A stretch of DNA of 64,000 nt from the human T2T-CHM13v2.0 reference genome, Homo sapiens. Within the stretch, counting starts at the first letter, position 1. Each line of letters starts with the position of its first letter. A program made the translations under genes and the position numbers. The notes under the pieces are model-generated. The model made no database searches, was not told where the DNA came from, and saw only the letters and a program-made list of their open reading frames with translations. The stretch lies in assembly GCF_009914755.1 (NCBI RefSeq), contig NC_060934.1. One strand, 5' to 3'. Positions 251 to 57,551 of this stretch are shown in pieces.

Positions 251-1102
251 TACCATGATGATGGTGGTACTGGTGATAGCGGTGGTGCTGGTGATGTTGG
301 TGATGTTATTGTTGATGATGGTGGTTGGTAGTATTGCTGTTGGCGGTGATGGTGGTGGTGGTAACATTGCTGGCGGTGATTGTGTTGGTAGTATTGATGT
401 TGGTGGGGGTGGTGAAGGTGGTAGTATTGTTGGTAGTAGTAGTATTGGTGATGGTGGTGGTAGTATTGTTTTTGGTAGTGTTTTTAGTATTGATGATAGT
501 GGTGGTAGTGTTGTTGGTAGTATTGTTGGTAGTGTTAGCATGGTTGTTGGTGGTAGTATTACTGGTAGTAGTGTTGGTGATAGTGGTGATGGTGGTAGTA
601 TTGGTAGTGGTGGTGGTAATATTGGTGATGGTGGTAGTATTGGTAATATTAGTGATAGTGGTGGTGGTAGTATTGTTGGTAGTATTGGTAGTGTTAGTAG
701 TGGTAGTATTGTTGGTAGTATTGTTGGTGATAGTGGTGATGGTAGTATTGTTGATAGTATTGGTAGTGGTGGTGGTAGTATTGGTGATGGTAGTAGTATT
801 GCTAATATTAGTGATAGTGGTGGTGGTAGTATTGTTGGTAGTGTTGGTAGTATTGGTAGTAGTGGTAGTATTCGTAGTATTGTTGGTGATAGTGGTGATG
901 GTGGTAGTGTTGTTTTTGTTGGTATTATTGCTGTTGGTAGTATTGTTGGTGATGTGTTGGTGGTGATTGTGGTGGTGGTAGTATTGTTGGTAGTGTTTTT
1001 GGTAGTGTTGGTGGTGGTATTGTTGTTGGTGGTAGTATTGTTGTTTGTAGTATTGGTGACAATGGTAGTAGTAGTAAGTATTGTTGTTGGTATTACTAGT
1101 AT

Positions 1103-1592
<490 letters not shown>

Positions 1593-3962
1593 TGGTGGTA
1601 GTATTGTTGGTGATACGGTAGTATTGTTATTGTTGGTAGTGTTGTAGGTGATGGTGATGGTAATAGCATTGTTATTGTTCATAGTATTGTAGGTGATGGT
1701 GGTGGTGGCGGTAGTATTGTTATTGTTGGTTGTATTGTTGGTGATGGTGGTAATATTGTTACTGTTGGTAGTATTGTTGGTAGTGTTGGTGATGTGGCGG
1801 TAGTATTGTTGGTAGTGTTGGTGATGTTATTCTTGGTAGTATTGTTGGTGATGGTGGTGGTGGTAGTATTGGTGGTAGTATTGTTGGTGATGTATTATTG
1901 GTAGTGTTGGTGTTGTTATTCTTGGTAGTACGGTTGGTGATGGTGGTGGTAGTATTGGTGGTAGTGTTGTTGGTGATGTAGTATTGTTGGTACTGTTGGT
2001 GATGTTATTCTTGGTAGTATTGTTGGTGATGTAGTATTGTTGGTAGTGTTGGTGATGTTGTTATTGGTAGTATTGTTGTTGGTAGTATTGTTGGTGATGT
2101 GGTAGTATTGTTGGTAGTGTTGGTGATGTTGTTATTGGTAGTATTGTTGGTGGTAGTATTGTTGGTGATGTGGTAGTATTGTTGGTAGTGTTGGTGATGT
2201 TATTCTTGGTAGTATTGTTGGTGATGGTGGTGGTGGTAGTGTTGGTAGTATTGTTGGTGATGTGGTAGTATTGTTGGTAGTGTTGGTGATGTTGTTATTG
2301 GTAGTATTGTTGGTGGTAGTATTGTTGGTGATGTGGTAGTATTGTTGGTAGTGTTGGTGATGTTATTCTTGGTAGTATTGTTGGTGATGGTGGTGGTGGT
2401 AGTGTTGGTAGTATTGTTGGTGATGTGGTAGTATTGTTATTGTTGGTAGTATTGTAGGTGATGGTGGTGGTGATAGTATTGTTATTGTTGGTAGTATTGT
2501 TGGTGATGGTAGTGGTAGTATTTTTTTGTTGGTGGTATTGTTGGTAGTATAGTTAGTGATGTAGTGTTGGTGGTGGTAGTATTGTTGGTGCTGCTGGTGG
2601 TGGTAGTATTTTTGGTAGTGGTGGTAGTATTTTTGGTAGTGGTGGTAGTATTTTGGTGATGGTTGTGAAGTATTGGTGATGGTGGTGGTGGAAGTATTGG
2701 TAGTAATTTTCGTAGTGTTGGTGGTGGTGGTATTGTTATTGGCAGCGATGGCAGTGGAGGTGGTAGTGGTGGTAGTACTGTTGGTAGTATTTTTAGTAGT
2801 GTTGGTAGTGGTGGTATTGGTGATGGTGGTGGTGGTAGTGTTGTGGTGTGGTGTGGTGGTAGTGGTGATGGCAGTGGAGGTGGTAGTGGTGGTAGTATTG
2901 TCAGTGATGGTGGTTGTGGTAGTATTGTTGGTAGTATTTTTCATAGGTTGGTAGTGGTGGTATTGGTGATGGTGGTGGTGGTAGTATTGTTATCGGTGGT
3001 GATGGCGGTGGAGGTGGTGATGGCAGTGGAGGTGGTAGTGGTAGCAATATTATTGATAGCAGTTTTGGTAATGTTGGTGGTGGTAGTACTGCTGATGGTG
3101 GTGGTGGTGGTAGTATTGTTAATCAGTGGTGATGGCAGGGGAGGTGCTGGTGTTAGTACACTGTCATCAGTGGAGCTCCCATTTTTCAGCTGAATGCCTT
3201 CGTGGCATAGGCCTCCTGGGAATGAGTGTGGGTAGAACGTCCCTCATTTGTGGTTGAGATTTTTCCCTGGAGCTGTGTTGGTGGGGGAAGCCTTGTTCCA
3301 CGTGTGTTGGGGTTAGAGGGTGTGTGGCTGCTCAGTGGTCAGCTTTGATGTCACCTGAAACATGTTACAGGTGAGTCAGGTGGAGCATTGGGGAACTGCA
3401 GGGAGAGGAGTGTTTTCTGATGTCAGAGCCGATGGAGCTTTAAAAGCTAAAAATGAAACAAACAGAAAATGTGGAGAGATGTTCAGTAGTTTGCTCGGTA
3501 CATTTTTAAAACTTCCGAGTGGTCCTGTGTGTTGGGTGTCATGGTGGACACACTGTCGTGGGCGCTTTCTGGGCAAAGTCTCCCCTGCCTGCCCTTTATC
3601 CTTGTGTGCTTTCGTCCTGCCCAGCAGCACCTCTGTAAGCAAGCAAACAGGGTTTTATAGCCTCTTGCTGAGTATTTCTCATCTCTTGCTAAGTATTTCT
3701 ACTGTGGTGCAAAAGCAATCTTATTATGTGTTGCTGTATTTTTATAGTCAATTGAAATGACTATTAAAATACAACATTGCTCATCAGGCTCAGAGCAGCA
3801 CTGCTGGAGAGGCCTGCCCTTGCAGATGAGGCAGCTGAGTCCTGGAAAGAGAGGCCTTCTTGGGAATCACAGCCGATGCAGGGGCCTGAGGCCTGGGCTG
3901 CTATGTAGGACCCTCCACAACCTCAGAACAGTCCTGGGCTCTGCTGTCACATCTTGAAATGT

Positions 3963-43874: not shown

Positions 43875-45266
43875 TATTTATTTATTTATTTATTTATTTT
43901 TAGTATTTATTGATCATTCTTGGGTGTTTCTCCGAGAGGGGGATTTGGCAGGGTCATAGGACAATAGTGGAGGGAAGGTCAGCAGATAAACATGTGAACA
44001 AAGGTCTCTGGTTTTCCTAGGCAGAGGACCCTGCGGCCTTCCGCAGTGTTTGTGTCCCTGGGTACTTGAGATTAGGGAGTGGTGGTGACTCTTAAGGAGC
44101 ATGCTGCCTTCAAGCATCTGTTTAACAAAGCACATCTTGCACCGCCCTTAATCCGTTTAACCCTGAGTGGACACAGCACATGTTTCAGAGAGCACGGGGT
44201 TGGGGGTAACGTCATAGATTAACAGCATCCCAAGGCAGAAGAATTTTTCTTAATACAGAACAAAATGGAGTCTCCCATGTCTACTTCTTTCTACACAGAC
44301 ACAGTAACAATCTGATCTCTCTTTCTTTTCCCCACATTTCCCCCTTTTCTATTCGACAAAACCGCCATCGTCATCATGGCCCGTTCTCAATGAGCTGTTG
44401 CGTACACCTCCCAGACGGGGTGGCCACCAGGCAGAGGGGCTCCTCACTTCCCAGACGGGGCGGCCGGGCAGAGGCGCCCCCCACCTCCCGAACGGGGTGG
44501 CTGCCGGGTGGAGGGGCTCCTCACTTCTCAGATGGGGCGGCCCGTCAGAGACGCTCCTCACCTCCCAGACGGGGTGGCGGCGGGGCAGAGACACTCCTCA
44601 GTTCCCAGACGGGGTCGTGGCTGGGCAGAGGCGCTCTTCACATCTCAGACGGGGCGGCAGGGCAGAGGCGCTCCCCAGATCCCAGACGATGGGCGGCCGG
44701 GCAGAGACGCTCCTCACTTCTAGACGGGATGACGGCCGGGAAGAGGCGCTCCTCACTTCCCAGACTGGGTGGCCGGGCAGACACGCTCCTCACTTCCCAG
44801 ACGGGGTGGCGGCCGGGCAGAGGCTGCAATCTCGGCACTTTGGGAGGCCAAGGCAGGTGGCTGGGAGGTGGAGGTTGTAGCGAGCCGAGATCATGCCACT
44901 GCACTCCAGCCTGGGCAACACTGAGCACTGGGTGAGCAAGACTCTGTCTGCAATCCCAGCACCTCGGGAGGCTGAGGCTGGCAGATCACTCACGGTCAGG
45001 AGCTGGAGACCAGCCGGGCCAACCCGGTGAAACCCCGTCTCCATCAAAAAATACGAAAACCAGTCAGGTGTGGCGGCGCGCGCCTGCAATCCCAGGCACT
45101 CCGCAGGCTGAGGCAGGAGAATCAGGCAGGGAGGCTGCAGTGAGCCGAGATGGCGGCAGTACAGTCCAGCCTTGGCTCGGCATCAGAGGCAGACCGTGGA
45201 GAGAGAGGGAGAGGGAGACCGTGGAGAGGGAGAGGGAGACCGTGGAGAGGGAGAGGGAGAGGGAGA
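43875..45266 (-). mobile_element. Full-length SVA retrotransposon (short VNTR; probably an older subfamily)
   Basis: On the - strand: (CCCTCT)n 5' end, Alu-like domain, GC-rich VNTR ~44410-44820, SINE-R, A-rich tail; TSD ATGTACTGTT at 43865 and 45267. Confidence 0.97.
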
Positions 45267-49543: not shown

Positions 49544-49739
49544 TTAAATGTGTATCTTAAGCTCACTTAACAGTAATTGACTATTGTTATTAAATTCCTT
49601 TTTGTCATATGAATAACTGATTAAAATGATAAAAACTGGTCTGAGAAGAGTCTCAATCCATTTTTTTACTGTCCTTTTCATTGGAGCTTGCATTGAATAA
49701 TGGGTCTCCAAAATAATTTATGGAAACTAATATTTCTAG

Positions 49740-49875
49740 GACCTCGGAAGCAAAGACCTGAAAAGGGAGAAAATCAGTTTTGTCTGTCAGATTGTTCGCG
49801 TGGGTCGCATGGAGCTGAGGGACAACAACACCAGGAAACTGACCTCGGGGTTGCGGCGACCTTTTGGAGTGGCTG
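49740..49875 (+). CDS. DOCK1: DOCK1 exon 10 (136 nt): [45 protein letters not shown](V)
   Basis: tatttctag| acceptor, CTG|gtaatc donor; DOCK-family RRPFG motif. Confidence 0.97.
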
Positions 49876-50281
49876 GTAATCTATTTCTCTGTGTTTCCTT
49901 GAGAGTTTCAGATCTTCACAGTCACTTTCAAAAGAATCACTGTTGAATGTTGATTGGACAATGCACAGCTGTGATTTATAAGCTTTTCTGCTGGAGAGAA
50001 AAAATATATTTATTAGTTATTTTCATTGTGGCTTCAAGTTGACCTGCTAGGCTCAGGATGCTCTAGTCCTCAAGTTTCAGATATAAATCATATATTTGGT
50101 TTTAAAGTGGATCCCATCTTTCCCTGGGAGTGATCCTGACCCATATTCTCAGTCTGTAGGGAAGCCAGTCAGTGGAGGTTTTCAGGTCTTGGTGATGGAC
50201 ATAAGAATGGATATGTGCAGGACGGTCAAAGCAACGAAGAAGAGGAAGAAAGGCAAACTGTGAAGAGAACGCGGTTAGCTT

Positions 50282-50515
50282 CATGTTGGTGCTCTTCATC
50301 CGCCATGTTGGTGCTGTTTCTCCGCCATGTTGGTGTTCTTCCTCCGCCATGTTGGTGTTCTTCCTCCGCCATGTTGGTGCTTTTCCTCTGCCATGTTGGT
50401 GCTCTTTCTCCGCCATGTTGGTGCTCTTCCTCCGCCATGTTGGTGCTCTTTATCTGCCATGTTGGTGCTCTTCCTCCACCGTGCTGGTGCTCTTCCTCCA
50501 CCCTGCTGTTGCTCT
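50282..50515. repeat. 22-bp minisatellite (ccgccatgttggtgctcttcct), ~10.5 copies
   Basis: CATG cores at an exact 22-bp period from 50282 to 50458. Confidence 0.97.
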
Positions 50516-50871
50516 GTTATTTTTGGTGACAGCACGAGGAATGTGAAAGACCAATTATCTCTGTTGAGGAAAGATAAAGGCATACCCAGGAAGTTCTGAT
50601 TATTTGCCCTAGTTCACTGTGACTCTCATTTTTCATAGTTTTGGGAAGTGGTTTTCTCTCTTTTATGGTTGCAGTACAATTTCATTACCTAGCACTGTGA
50701 TATTTATTTTAATTTTTGTGATTTTTGGGATTCATATGGATATTTATGAGGGAAAAGTTCCTGATTCTTGACACATAGCTGGATTTTTTTGTATGAACAG
50801 CTATGGAAGACATTCTTTCCCTTGGCTACCAGGAAACTCTGAACTTAGTCCATCCCCCCTGCCTTTTAAAT

Positions 50872-51180
50872 AAACATTATTTTTAGAAGAGTTTTAGGTT
50901 CAAGCAAAATTGAACAGAAAATACAGACAGTTCCCATATATTTCTCCTTCCTTCCCCCTGCCTCCCCATTATCAGTATCCACCATAGATTGGTACATTGA
51001 TTACAGTTGGTGAACCGCATTGACACATCGTCGCCCTGTGAAGTCTGTAGTTTACATTAGCGTTCATTCTTGATGTTGTGCCTTCTGTGGGTTTCGACAA
51101 ATGAATAATACCGTATATTCACCATTGTAGTCTCTCACTGGGTAGCTTCACCATCCTAAAAGTCCTCTGTGCTCCGCCTG
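50872..51180 (-). mobile_element. Old L1 (L1MC/MD-like) 3' end fragment
   Basis: tttttagaagagttttaggttcaagcaaaattgaacagaaaatacag. Confidence 0.75.
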
Positions 51181-52580: not shown

Positions 52581-52951
52581 AGAACCTGTGTGAACCTGCA
52601 TGAACCTGTGTGAACCTCTGTAAACCTGTGTGAACCTGCGTGAACCTTTATGAACCTGTGTGAACCTGTGTGAACCCACGTGAACCTTTATGAACCTCTG
52701 AACCTGCATGAACCTGTGTGAAACTGCGTGAACCTGTGTGAACCTCTAAGAACATGTGTGAACCTGCATGAACCTGCGTGAACCTGTGTGAACCTTTATG
52801 AACCTGTGTGAACCCACGTGAACCTTTTTGAACCTGTATGAACCTGCGTGAACCTGTGTGAACCTGCGTGAACCTGTGTAACCTTTATGAACCTGTGTGA
52901 ACCTGTGTGAACCTGCATGAACCTGCGTGAACCTGTGTGAACCTGTGTGAA
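52581..52951. repeat. 10-bp minisatellite TGAACCTGTG and variants, ~37 units
   Basis: Seen directly. Confidence 0.98.
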
Positions 52952-54907: not shown

Positions 54908-57551
54908 GGGATAGAAGGGATGCTTCCCACATCTGAGAAGGTTGATCAACATTTTGGTAATCGTATTCTATCTGTTCATAGGCTACTTCAATTTCCACAT
55001 GCAAATTTAATTTTGAGGCTTTCTTTAGAATGACTTCTGCGTGTCTGTGTTAACAGAGTTCAGTTCCTTAAAATGAGAAAGTGTCCATGGACCTTTAAGT
55101 CTACAGTTCTTAGTCTTCGGTTGAAAAGAATGTGTCACATTTCTGTCTTTTAACCTTTTTATAATGTAACCTTTTCTATCTTTTTCTAAAAGATAGAAAA
55201 TTGTAAAAATAATGGAAATTTTATGGAAAAGTGTAGTTAAATAAATTATCCATAGTTTTACATAGCCAGGGTAGTACCTCATGTTTATTCTGATATGTTT
55301 GTTTCCAAATTATTTTTTCTGTGTGTGGCATATGATTTTTAAATACAATATCCCGTCCTACCATGTATTTGTTTATTTAACTGATTGATTTTTTAATGTC
55401 TTTTTAGTCCCTTTTTTGCCATCTTAACCATTTTTAGGCGTGCAGTTCAGTAGTAAGTATGTTTGCATTGCACATACTTTTATCTTTCTAACAAACCTAG
55501 CATTATCTTATGAACATGTCCTTTTATTAAGCATTATTCAAAAATTCGGCTTCTCAATGGCTGCAGCCTGTAGTCCTGTGATTCCAGCAGTCCTTTGCTT
55601 TGGGCTCTGAGGTTATCTCAGCCTTGCGGTGTAGTAGCTACGCAGTGAGCATCCTGGGGCTTGAAGCATCCCACCTGTGCCTGTTTGCAGGCCAGCCCCT
55701 GCAGCGGAGTTGCTGACTCGCAGGGTGTGGGGGTCCATCTGCCGTGAGCAAGTCATCCTGATGCAGCCCCACCAGTGGGACTGAGCCATCAGCCCCTCTC
55801 CCTGCGAGACGTTTCTCACCTCCTGCCTTCTGCTCTCCTGCCTGTGCTGGCCCTGGGCCTCTGTCACTCTTGTCCCAACGCCACTGCCTCCTTCCTTCTC
55901 CTGCCCTCTGTCTTCCAGCATCACGCGGTGCCGTCTGTCTACCCGGCCTCTCCCTCACACAGCTGTACTGACTTCAGCTGGACTCTGTCTTTTCACCATC
56001 CTCTTCCCTGAATGTAGAGACCCTGGGCTGGCTGGCTGGGGGAATTTTTCCCCCAAGTCCTTTATTTCCTCCTTTGGTGTCAGGGACATCTTGTCCAAAC
56101 TGCAGGGAGCACTCCCTCTGCGTGGGGCTGTGTGCGGAAGAGCAGTCAGGGGAGTCCCTGGGAAGCGCGATGAGCGGTGATGACTGGCGACGTCAAGGCC
56201 TTCTCCTCGAGGCTCAGGATGGGTGCGGGACTCGGGGTGTTTTCCACCTGTGGGTGCTCAGGCTCTGATTGCGTTTCCCGCTTGTTTGCTGCCTTCCTGC
56301 ACATGGTCCTGTGTTCCAGGGCTGGGCACTGGGGATGTGGCAAGGGAGTCCCATGGTCAGCTGGTGAGATGAGTCCCATGGCAGAGCAGAGCTCTGCAGG
56401 CACCCAGCAAGGCCACCCAGGACCAGCTGGCATGTGAGGGTGGGCCTGCTCGGGTCAGACTCCCTTGGTTCTGGCTCATCGTGGGCTGCTGCCTAAATGA
56501 GTTTATTGAAGGATGCTGAACTGGTGGTCTCGGGCATCTTGGAAAAAGGTAAAAAGGTGGGTGCTGCAGTCAGTCGCGTGTGGGTCAGTCACCCCCAAGA
56601 GTGCTGGAAGCTGGGAAACGCTTCCCCCAGGCCAGGTGAGGGCCCGTGTCCAGACCATGCATCCTCTGAGCAGCTGTCATTTGATGTTGCAAGTTATTTG
56701 GGATTCCTTGACCTGTATCTGCAAACACAGCCGTGGGCTCCTGGCTCTTTGAGGCCCCTTGGTTGAGTGGAGTGAGTGTGGGTGTCGTCTCTTACGACAC
56801 TGCTGAGGCCCCTGGGGCCCCACCAGACCAAGCAGGGGATGAGGATGCTGCTTTTTTGGTTCTATGTATCCCTCCTCCTTTTTGGAGGGTGGTGATGGTG
56901 ATGGTAGAAAGGAAAATTTTCAATATATGATTACTTACATGTTGGACAAAATATATTTAGACTGATCCTCTTACCTGAACGCAGAGCTGGGCTACAGAGA
57001 GACCCTTCTGGGGAAAGGTCTTGTGCGAAGAAAATAAACAAGGCATCTTCCTCTCAAGTCCAGTGTGGCGGTGGAGCAGTAGCAGACACAGGGAAAGTGA
57101 CCCGGGCCATCTGGGGTTATTCTTGGACTTTCTTGTTCTGTCATGACCAAGGGCAAAAGGAATTGTTTGAAAGGTAGACAGTGTGTCTGGGTTTACCCCT
57201 GAATGTCATCAGGGAATGTCTTTTAACACAAGAAGATGGCAAAGGATATTAGCCTTTCTTGTGATGTTAGCAAGCCTGGATCTCCCGGGGGGTGTGTTTG
57301 TGAAGGCAGTTTAATAGGATTGAAAGAGCTTGGGTCTTGGAGACTTTCTCGCTGTAGACTTTGAGCATGCTTGTTCATGCCTGTCTTTGAGCCTCAGTTT
57401 CTTGTCAGTATGGTAGGTTACTGAGGATTTGCCTTGAAGTGTCCTCTTGAAAGAGCGTCCACAGATACCAGCATGTGGTGGGTGCTTGGTAAATGGTAGC
57501 TACTTGTTGGCTTAATTGTTTGCGGGAAAGCAAAAGTGTGAGGCTTCAGAA

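What the first reader, a model, noticed from the sequence alone, without database searches (positions are those of the whole stretch)
50282..50515. 22-bp minisatellite that is a phased array of YY1 consensus sites
Seen: six exact CCGCCATGTT (50300, 50322, 50344, 50366, 50410, 50432) and two CpG-decayed CTGCCATGTT (50388, 50454), all in one orientation, about two helical turns apart and ~400 bp after exon 10. Established: the YY1 consensus is CGCCATNTT, CpG methylation can block binding, and tandem intronic YY1 arrays occur at imprinting control regions such as Peg3. Inference: a methylation-sensitive, copy-number-variable YY1 hub inside DOCK1. I know of no description of it.
Basis: partly seen in the sequence, partly recalled or inferred. 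Interest (0 to 1): 0.7.

Follow-up and report, generated by a model that had tools for sequence, protein, structure and literature searches.

The report
YY1-site minisatellite inside a DOCK1 intron
A short tandem repeat inside the human DOCK1 gene carries eight copies of the binding word of the regulator YY1 and likely works only as a dormant enhancer that wakes when its DNA is unmethylated; it lacks the marks of an imprinting switch, and ten similar repeats lie elsewhere in the genome.

Summary
In detail: a single-locus 22-bp minisatellite (50282-50515, 10.6 copies) with six exact and two TpG YY1 consensus sites in one orientation, 407 bp after DOCK1 exon 10. For activity: it lies inside the window's only RefSeq enhancer (1.5% by chance) and is flagged in a published catalogue as overlapping an ENCODE factor-binding cluster; the same site variant occurs in the PEG3 and XIST clusters. 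Against a standing hub or imprinting element: no DNase cluster, no CpG island, no ZFP57 motif in 4.2 kb (PEG3: 11 in 4.5 kb), 105 kb from the promoter, absent from the imprinting lists I could read. The motif is not better kept than the spacer, 'phasing' drifts 34 degrees per copy, and ten other human repeats carry such triplets, near the rate of control words. It is already catalogued as a VNTR (hg38 chr10:127,000,714-127,000,947; 15 of 2,504 people with a much shorter allele), with no expression link reported. Best reading: an accidental YY1 array, likely methylated and closed in most cells, able to bind YY1 when unmethylated. YY1 binding, methylation and conservation could not be tested. 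New member of a known kind; interest 0.3.

The parts
50282..50515 (+). 22-bp minisatellite, 10.6 copies, in DOCK1 intron 10; equals hg38 chr10:127,000,714-127,000,947 (VNTRseek TR 182313752)
   Evidence: single locus in T2T
50300..50375 (+). four exact YY1 consensus sites with intact CpG (50300, 50322, 50344, 50366)
   Evidence: consensus from PMC1904287
50388..50397 (+). TpG variant of the YY1 site (no CpG; predicted weaker, methylation-proof)
   Evidence: TpG and CpA probes still bound YY1 in gel shifts
50410..50441 (+). two exact YY1 consensus sites (50410, 50432)
50454..50463 (+). second TpG variant of the YY1 site
50468..50511 (+). two 3' copies that have lost the YY1 core (CpA at the CpG plus changes in the core)
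50338..50498 (-). five GAGGAAG (ETS/PU.1-like) words in the spacer of the unit; weak match, second candidate factor
   Evidence: motif recalled; a related spacer word bound PU.1 in the MAD1L1 VNTR
49583..50782 (.). RefSeq functional element 'enhancer', 1,200 bp, contains exon 10 and the whole array; assay not stated in the annotation
   Evidence: hub annotation; (centre 216 bp left of the array centre; 1.5% chance of containing the array)
49740..49875 (+). DOCK1 exon 10 (NM_001290223.2)
   Evidence: hub annotation
50473..50560 (-). last exon of the predicted antisense lncRNA LOC107984059; canonical acceptor at 50560, model ends inside the array
   Evidence: hub annotation

Best explanation
The element is a single-locus 22-bp minisatellite whose unit contains a YY1 consensus site, and it likely acts as a latent enhancer: predicted methylated and closed in most body cells, and predicted to bind YY1 and drive transcription only when its CpGs are unmethylated. 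Shown: the array, eight same-orientation sites (six with CpG, two TpG), single-copy unit and 5' flank, position inside a RefSeq enhancer, overlap with an ENCODE TF cluster but no DNase cluster, CpG-poor surroundings, rare large contractions. Inferred: (1) local slippage or unequal exchange amplified a 22-mer that happened to hold the site, with no sign that the motif was selected; (2) gene-body methylation covers the six CpGs and blocks most binding, the two TpG copies leaving weak residual binding; (3) on unmethylated DNA (reporter plasmids, hypomethylated cells) several YY1 molecules load and account for the enhancer call; (4) the effect on DOCK1, 105 kb from its promoter, is small or confined to few cell types.
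For: Array and motif. Unit and 5' flank unique in T2T. YY1 consensus, methylation block, TpG/CpA still bound: PMC1904287 passages. G-variant site in known clusters: 2 of 7 at PEG3, 1 of 5 at XIST. The window's only RefSeq functional element contains the array (1.5% by chance) and holds no AP-1, CRE, NF-Y, p53 or E-box word, so the array is its densest motif cluster. Catalogue flags TFBS yes, DNase no, CpG island no. CpG o/e 0.41 in the array, 0.30 over +/-2 kb; both strands of the unit's CpG show transitions. Accidental origin: motif no better kept than spacer (0 of 5 distinct non-CpG variants in the motif for the 8 motif copies, P 0.12; 3 of 9 for all 10 copies, P 0.61); 11 human loci carry such triplets, 0.7-1.9 times the rate of five control words per single site.
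Against: Methylation and YY1 occupancy at this locus were not seen in any call. The TF cluster names no factor and 38% of reference repeats have the flag. The assay behind the enhancer is not in the annotation (my recall that 1,200-bp RefSeq enhancers come from HCT116 STARR-seq could not be checked), its centre lies 100 bp left of the array, and it also holds exon 10. CpG decay is weak evidence for methylation: 2 distinct variants at 2 CpG positions against 9 at 20 others, and PEG3's own cluster has TpG copies. Nearly half of all genomic CGCCATNTT words (31,793 of 66,774) sit in an Alu-type context that shares most of the unit's site, so the word alone predicts little. With those removed, YY1 arrays are 1.4-3.6 times the control rate (P 0.02-0.53), so mild selection for such arrays is not excluded.
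Confidence: 0.5

Rival explanations
1. Inert minisatellite: the YY1 word is accidental, is never appreciably bound in the genome, and the enhancer call comes from other sequence in the 1.2-kb fragment.
For: No DNase cluster; no motif-selective conservation; arrays at about the control rate; the site is nearly the common Alu word; 15 of 2,504 people carry an allele lacking at least five units; single TEAD, ETS, GATA and FOX words lie elsewhere in the enhancer.
Against: Containment in the window's only enhancer (1.5%) together with a TF ChIP cluster (about 22-27% expected for a repeat without DNase); eight sites within 165 bp; the variant occurs at PEG3 and XIST.
Confidence: 0.22
2. Active YY1 hub: YY1 is bound in one or more normal cell types and, in proportion to copy number, loops to the DOCK1 promoter or tunes the antisense lncRNA or circDOCK1 output.
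For: Enhancer and TFBS overlap; length variation exists; Peg3 YY1 sites act as transcriptional activators; precedent of a VNTR unit binding PU.1 in proportion to copy number; a spliced antisense transcript runs into the array.
Against: DNase flag 'no'; 105 kb from the promoter; no hit in the readable supplements of three VNTR-expression studies, though none shows that this locus was tested; hg38 and CHM13 have the same length.
Confidence: 0.17
3. RNA-level element: the sense strand (CU-rich tract plus UGUUGGUG per unit) binds splicing factors such as ESRP1 400 nt after exon 10 and affects splicing or back-splicing.
For: GGTG density 42.7 per kb against 53.2 in the intron-1 GGT repeat and 5.5 elsewhere; ESRP1 recognises GGU and controls circDOCK1(2-27) through an intron-1 repeat (PMC10853802).
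Against: That paper's text reports CLIP peaks in intron 1 and two very small ones at exon 28, and never mentions intron 10 or exon 10; no stable fold (z -0.74); no Rfam match.
Confidence: 0.07
4. Imprinting control-type element like Peg3-DMR: one parental allele is methylated from the germ line and YY1 binds the other.
For: Site number and orientation fit; human PEG3's cluster is itself partly a tandem repeat (138-bp period) with G-variant and TpG sites.
Against: 0 ZFP57 hexamers in 4.2 kb against 11 in 4.5 kb at PEG3 and 6 in 2 kb at XIST; CpG 1.3 per 100 bp against 4.5-5.0; far from a promoter; the imprintome's DOCK1 candidate (ICR_686) is 23 kb upstream of the gene and the next numbered candidate is at 127.91 Mb; no hit in 18 of 18 Akbari files.
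Confidence: 0.04

Closest known systems
YY1 clusters of imprinting/X-inactivation control regions (PEG3 intron 1, XIST exon 1; Kim lab)
   Same: 4-10 same-orientation YY1 sites; CGCCATGTT variant and TpG-decayed copies present; human PEG3 cluster partly a tandem repeat
   Different: PEG3 sites are 84-769 bp apart over 2.5 kb and XIST sites 33-136 bp apart, both beside a CpG-rich promoter and rich in ZFP57 words; the DOCK1 array has 22-bp spacing, lies 105 kb from the promoter in CpG-poor DNA, has no ZFP57 word and is in no imprinting list read
Regulatory VNTRs whose unit is a factor site (MAD1L1 VNTR binding PU.1, PMC11701250; promoter and intron VNTRs cited in PMC8096271)
   Same: intronic minisatellite, unit carries a factor site, length varies, overlaps an annotated enhancer
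   Different: binding and expression effect shown there, not here; only rare large contractions are documented here
Other human minisatellites with tandem CGCCATNTT (10 loci: chr2:83.88, chr8:132.47, chr10:131.45, chr20:65.14, chr21:10.71, chr22:46.08, X/Y PAR 1.29 and 1.98, X:112.0, X:112.8 Mb, T2T)
   Same: three or more exact sites in a row at 13-37 bp period; several longer or purer (11 of 11 copies at chr10:131.45; at least 18 sites at PAR 1.98)
   Different: the DOCK1 array is the only one built on the G variant; only X:112.0 shares the 22-bp period; unrelated units, so no shared origin
ESRP1-bound GGU repeat of DOCK1 intron 1 (PMC10853802)
   Same: tandem repeat in a DOCK1 intron with GGU words on the sense strand
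   Different: kilobases long with a strong CLIP peak and a deletion phenotype; none reported for intron 10

Membership tests
ICR-type YY1 cluster (PEG3/XIST/Nespas) | 4-10 YY1 sites in one orientation | tested here: met
   6 exact + 2 TpG sites on +; definition from PMC5526879
ICR-type YY1 cluster (PEG3/XIST/Nespas) | beside a promoter, in CpG-rich DNA | tested here: not met
   105 kb from gene start; CpG o/e 0.30 and 1.3 CpG/100 bp over +/-2 kb; PEG3 4.5-5.0, XIST 2.7-2.9
ICR-type YY1 cluster (PEG3/XIST/Nespas) | listed as a parent-of-origin methylated region | tested here: not met
   imprintome has no candidate between 126.88 and 127.91 Mb hg38; no gene or coordinate hit in 18 of 18 Akbari files; Rosenski: none in 5 readable files, the 2 large tables unreadable
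ICR-type YY1 cluster (PEG3/XIST/Nespas) | ZFP57 hexamers (feature and motif recalled) | tested here: not met
   0 in 4,234 bp; controls PEG3 11 in 4,500 bp, XIST 6 in 2,000 bp
ICR-type YY1 cluster (PEG3/XIST/Nespas) | cluster kept at the orthologous place across mammals | not testable with these tools
   no other vertebrate genome is held ('no relatives here')
ICR-type YY1 cluster (PEG3/XIST/Nespas) | YY1 bound in vivo to the unmethylated allele | not testable with these tools
   no ChIP or methylation tracks; only an unnamed TF-cluster flag
Regulatory (expression-linked) VNTR | copy number varies among people | tested here: met
   private VNTR, count 15 of 2,504; 150-bp reads see only alleles up to 130 bp, i.e. 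loss of at least 5 units
Regulatory (expression-linked) VNTR | unit binds a transcription factor | tested here: inconclusive
   exact consensus match and TFBS flag; binding to this unit not shown
Regulatory (expression-linked) VNTR | copy number associated with expression | tested here: inconclusive
   the DOCK1 row in VNTRseek's expression table is another repeat (182313792, FDR 0.84); no hit in Lu 2023 (4 of 5 files) or Zhang 2024 (4 files); not shown that this locus was tested
Active enhancer | enhancer annotation over the element | tested here: met
   RefSeq enhancer 49583-50782 contains the array (hub annotation); assay not seen
Active enhancer | open chromatin in cells | tested here: not met
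   DNase cluster flag 'no' (ENCODE 3 track as used in PMC8096271)
Helically phased binding-site array | sites stay on one face of the helix; period chosen near a multiple of 10.5 | tested here: not met
   34 degrees drift per copy, 240 over eight sites; 5 of 11 YY1 arrays within 1.5 bp of a helical multiple, P 0.26

The most novel reading that the evidence does not exclude
The array is a demethylation-activated YY1 rheostat: in placenta, germ cells, stem cells or hypomethylated tumours it loads several YY1 molecules and tunes DOCK1, circDOCK1 or the antisense lncRNA in proportion to unit number, and it is one of a small undescribed set of about eleven human YY1 minisatellites that behave this way outside imprinted domains.
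Probability: 0.15. Interest if true: 0.6.

Novelty: new member of a known kind. Interest (0 to 1): 0.3.

Why it matters
If the array binds YY1 in a methylation- and length-dependent way, it is a natural dose series for asking how many YY1 sites make an enhancer or loop anchor and how methylation gates it, with human carriers of half-length alleles already known, at a gene (DOCK1, a Rac activator) whose linear-versus-circular output controls cell migration. The genome scan also gives a ready list of eleven such arrays to test together. As it stands it is an ordinary catalogued VNTR with a suggestive motif and an enhancer label; it does not extend imprinting biology.

Tried and rejected
Origin from a dispersed repeat or pseudogene: unit with up to 2 mismatches gives 7 rows here and 1 lone row on chr3; array and 5' flank are single-copy (the tool warns that DNA searches skip common words); likeness to the Alu word is limited to about 11 bases. 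Structured or known RNA: no Rfam match over the array at E up to 10, only an Alu/SRP hit elsewhere in the window, fold z -0.74. Coding: every unit gives an ATG in strong context on the minus strand with ORFs of 10-104 aa; nothing supports translation; not searched further. p53: no full half-site in the enhancer. REX1/ZFP42: rejected. Helical design and motif-selective conservation: not significant. Enrichment of YY1 arrays over control words: not shown; the control locus count is a range (5-13) because reversed-pattern rows are counted but not listed. Literature: searches for clustered YY1 + DOCK1, DOCK1 + YY1 (37 papers, 30 listed), DOCK1 + VNTR (11 of 11 listed), DOCK1 + imprinting terms, VNTR + YY1 and DOCK1/minisatellite/LOC107984059 (40 of 2,309 listed) showed no title or abstract on this array. 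Not obtainable: Kim 2006, Kim and Kim 2009, Neumayr 2022. ECMFinder covered only 5 kb around start sites, so it could not list this array. Earlier scan findings were not open.

Full report
1. Observation. The repeat is there as described: 50282-50515, period 22, 10.6 copies, 88% matches, no indels. Six CCGCCATGTT and two CTGCCATGTT sit at the stated positions on the + strand, 407 bp after exon 10 and 105 kb after the start of DOCK1. The two 3' copies have lost the core and carry CpA at the CpG. Eight of 23 GCCATNTT words in the window are in the array, against 11.5 expected for the window; the excess is one amplification event. The array, its unit (up to 2 mismatches: 7 rows here, 1 on chr3) and its 5' flank are single-copy in the T2T genome.

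2. Is the word a YY1 site? Passages of PMC1904287 give CGCCATNTT as the consensus, show that methylation of the upper strand inhibits binding, that TpG or CpA at the CpG lowers but keeps binding, that YY2 binds the same word more weakly, and that REX1 does not bind YY1-type probes. So the six intact copies are predicted methylation-sensitive and the two TpG copies weak but methylation-proof. I fetched the human PEG3 and XIST regions at recalled coordinates; identity was checked by the PEG3 N-terminal reading frame and the XIST A-repeat, both recognised from memory. PEG3 has 7 same-orientation exact sites over 2.5 kb (one further Alu-type site 1 kb away left out), 2 of them the G variant; XIST has 5 in 350 bp, 1 the G variant. 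Part of the PEG3 cluster is a 138-bp tandem repeat with TpG copies. Against over-reading the word: 31,793 of 66,774 genomic CGCCATNTT lie in an Alu-type context sharing most of this site (Alu assignment recalled).

3. Is it special? Three exact sites in a row at 10-40 bp period give 39 rows: 11 loci plus 2 Y-chromosome duplicates of pseudoautosomal loci. Several are longer or purer than this one. Five control words with the same letters have 56,919 single sites and 15 rows, 5-13 loci. Per single site the YY1 arrays are 0.7-1.9 times the control rate (P 0.32-0.82); with Alu-type singles removed from the YY1 side only, 1.4-3.6 times (P 0.02-0.53). Enrichment is not shown, and not excluded. Within the array the motif is not better kept than the spacer: 0 of 5 distinct non-CpG variants fall in it among the 8 motif copies (P 0.12), 3 of 9 among all 10 copies (P 0.61). 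Phasing: 34 degrees of drift per copy; 5 of 11 arrays have a period near a helical multiple (P 0.26). Only this array and one at X:112.0 Mb have four cores at 22-bp spacing.

4. What is on record. The supplement of Eslami Rasekh 2021 (PMC8096271; one file, cut when stored) lists the repeat as TR 182313752, hg38 chr10:127,000,714-127,000,947, period 22, 234 bp, 10.64 copies, flags intron yes, CpG island no, TFBS yes, DNase no, count 15, among private VNTRs. By its methods (passages) private means under 1% of 2,504 people, the flags are ENCODE 3 TF and DNase clusters (38% and 21% of reference repeats), and an allele must fit in a 150-bp read; so the 15 carriers lack at least five units and smaller changes were invisible. 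hg38 and CHM13 have the same length. The DOCK1 row in its expression table is another repeat, FDR 0.84. Lu 2023 (supplements only, 4 of 5 files) and Zhang 2024 (passages and 4 files) gave no hit by gene name, coordinate or, for Zhang, motif. The hub annotation places the window's only RefSeq functional element, a 1,200-bp enhancer, over exon 10 and the array; a random element of that size would contain the array 1.5% of the time, and the fragment has no AP-1, CRE, NF-Y, p53 or E-box word (motifs recalled). I recall that RefSeq enhancers of this size come from STARR-seq in HCT116 (Neumayr 2022), a plasmid assay on unmethylated DNA; the paper was not held, so this is unchecked.

5. Imprinting. 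PMC5526879 (passages) describes ICR clusters as 4-10 same-orientation sites inside a germline-methylated region that includes the promoter, and found that mutating Peg3's 7 sites lowered transcription without changing the imprint. Here the surroundings have 1.3 CpG per 100 bp and no ZFP57 hexamer in 4,234 bp, against 11 in 4,500 bp at PEG3 and 6 in 2,000 bp at XIST. The imprintome (PMC9665137; passages and its one supplement) has ICR_686 23 kb upstream of DOCK1 and ICR_687 at 127.91 Mb, nothing between. Akbari 2022 (supplements only, 18 of 18 files) has no DOCK1 or coordinate hit, but also no hit for the neighbouring FAM196A/INSYN2 region that I recall as placenta-imprinted, so placenta is not covered by this negative. 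Rosenski 2025: no hit in 5 readable files; its two large tables could not be read and may bear on this. ECMFinder (PMC2665242; abstract, sections 14, 16, 21) searched only 5 kb around start sites. Kim 2006, which I recall screened genomes for tandem YY1 arrays, was not held and could list this locus.

6. Mechanism. Most likely (0.50) a 22-mer holding a YY1 site was amplified locally; gene-body methylation (inferred from position, CpG depletion and transitions on both strands of the unit's CpG, weak evidence) keeps it closed, matching the missing DNase cluster; when unmethylated it would load several YY1 molecules, matching the enhancer label and perhaps the TF cluster. Rivals: inert repeat (0.22), active copy-number-dependent hub (0.17), RNA-level splicing element (0.07; GGTG density near that of the ESRP1-bound intron-1 repeat, but the CLIP text of PMC10853802, passages, reports no peak here; no fold or Rfam match), imprinting element (0.04). 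A second candidate factor is an ETS protein: five units carry GAGGAAG on the minus strand, and a related word bound PU.1 in the MAD1L1 VNTR. The antisense lncRNA model has canonical splice sites and ends inside the array; the first AATAAA on its strand is at 50014, so its last exon may cross the whole array (inference).

7. Verdict. It works like a tandem YY1 cluster of the Peg3 type in anatomy, but fails the tested membership features of an imprinting control region. It is a catalogued VNTR; six literature searches (listings only) showed no description of its YY1 content. PMC8582367 (passages) was used only to anchor hg19 coordinates (about 128,798,978-128,799,211). New member of a known kind; interest 0.3, rising to about 0.6 if methylation- and length-dependent control of DOCK1 were shown.

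Noticed in passing
window 52582-52951: 10-bp minisatellite (37 copies). Most units score 8 of 10 against the recalled p53 half-site RRRCWWGYYY, head to tail with no spacer, one unit 9 of 10; the core is CCTG, not CATG, so binding is doubtful.
   Followed up: partly
window 50473-50560, 51123-51177, 56975-57049 (minus): Predicted lncRNA LOC107984059 has canonical donors and acceptors; the model stops inside the array with no polyadenylation word until 50014. The VNTR catalogue also flags the array as overlapping a GENCODE 5' exon and as within 1 kb upstream and downstream of transcripts, which I could not resolve.
   Followed up: partly
window 256-3112: Long GGT-rich repeat in DOCK1 intron 1, 17-20 kb before exon 2; probably the broad second set of ESRP1 CLIP peaks described in PMC10853802 (main peak 23 kb upstream of exon 2, just outside the window).
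   Followed up: partly
G000 chr10:131,448,329-131,448,647 (L013); chr22:46,076,519-46,076,749 (L024); chrX:1,975,717 (L030); chrX:1,285,353 (L027): Stronger tandem YY1 arrays than the DOCK1 one: 11 identical 31-bp copies; 7 copies of 37 bp at 98%; at least 18 and 10 exact sites in two pseudoautosomal repeats with CpG o/e 1.05 and 0.81. Better candidates for a YY1-array study.
   Followed up: partly
G000 chrX:112,798,590-112,798,624 (L046): Three exact YY1 words at 13-bp period plus a near copy, in a CpG-rich patch (o/e 0.77) just after a TATA-like word; looks like a promoter of unknown owner.
   Followed up: no
G000 chrX:111,999,476 (L005) and chr8:132,465,820 (L008): Two YY1 arrays share a unit core and look LTR-derived (assignment recalled), i.e. 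expansions of a YY1 site inside a dispersed repeat.
   Followed up: no
window 44405-45266: 40/77-bp GC-rich VNTR followed by a hexamer tract, the layout of an SVA element on the minus strand (recalled), in DOCK1 intron 6.
   Followed up: no
window 50284-50460 (minus): Each unit read on the minus strand gives an ATG in strong Kozak context, opening ORFs of 10-104 aa; the usual overlap of YY1 and Kozak words (recalled).
   Followed up: no
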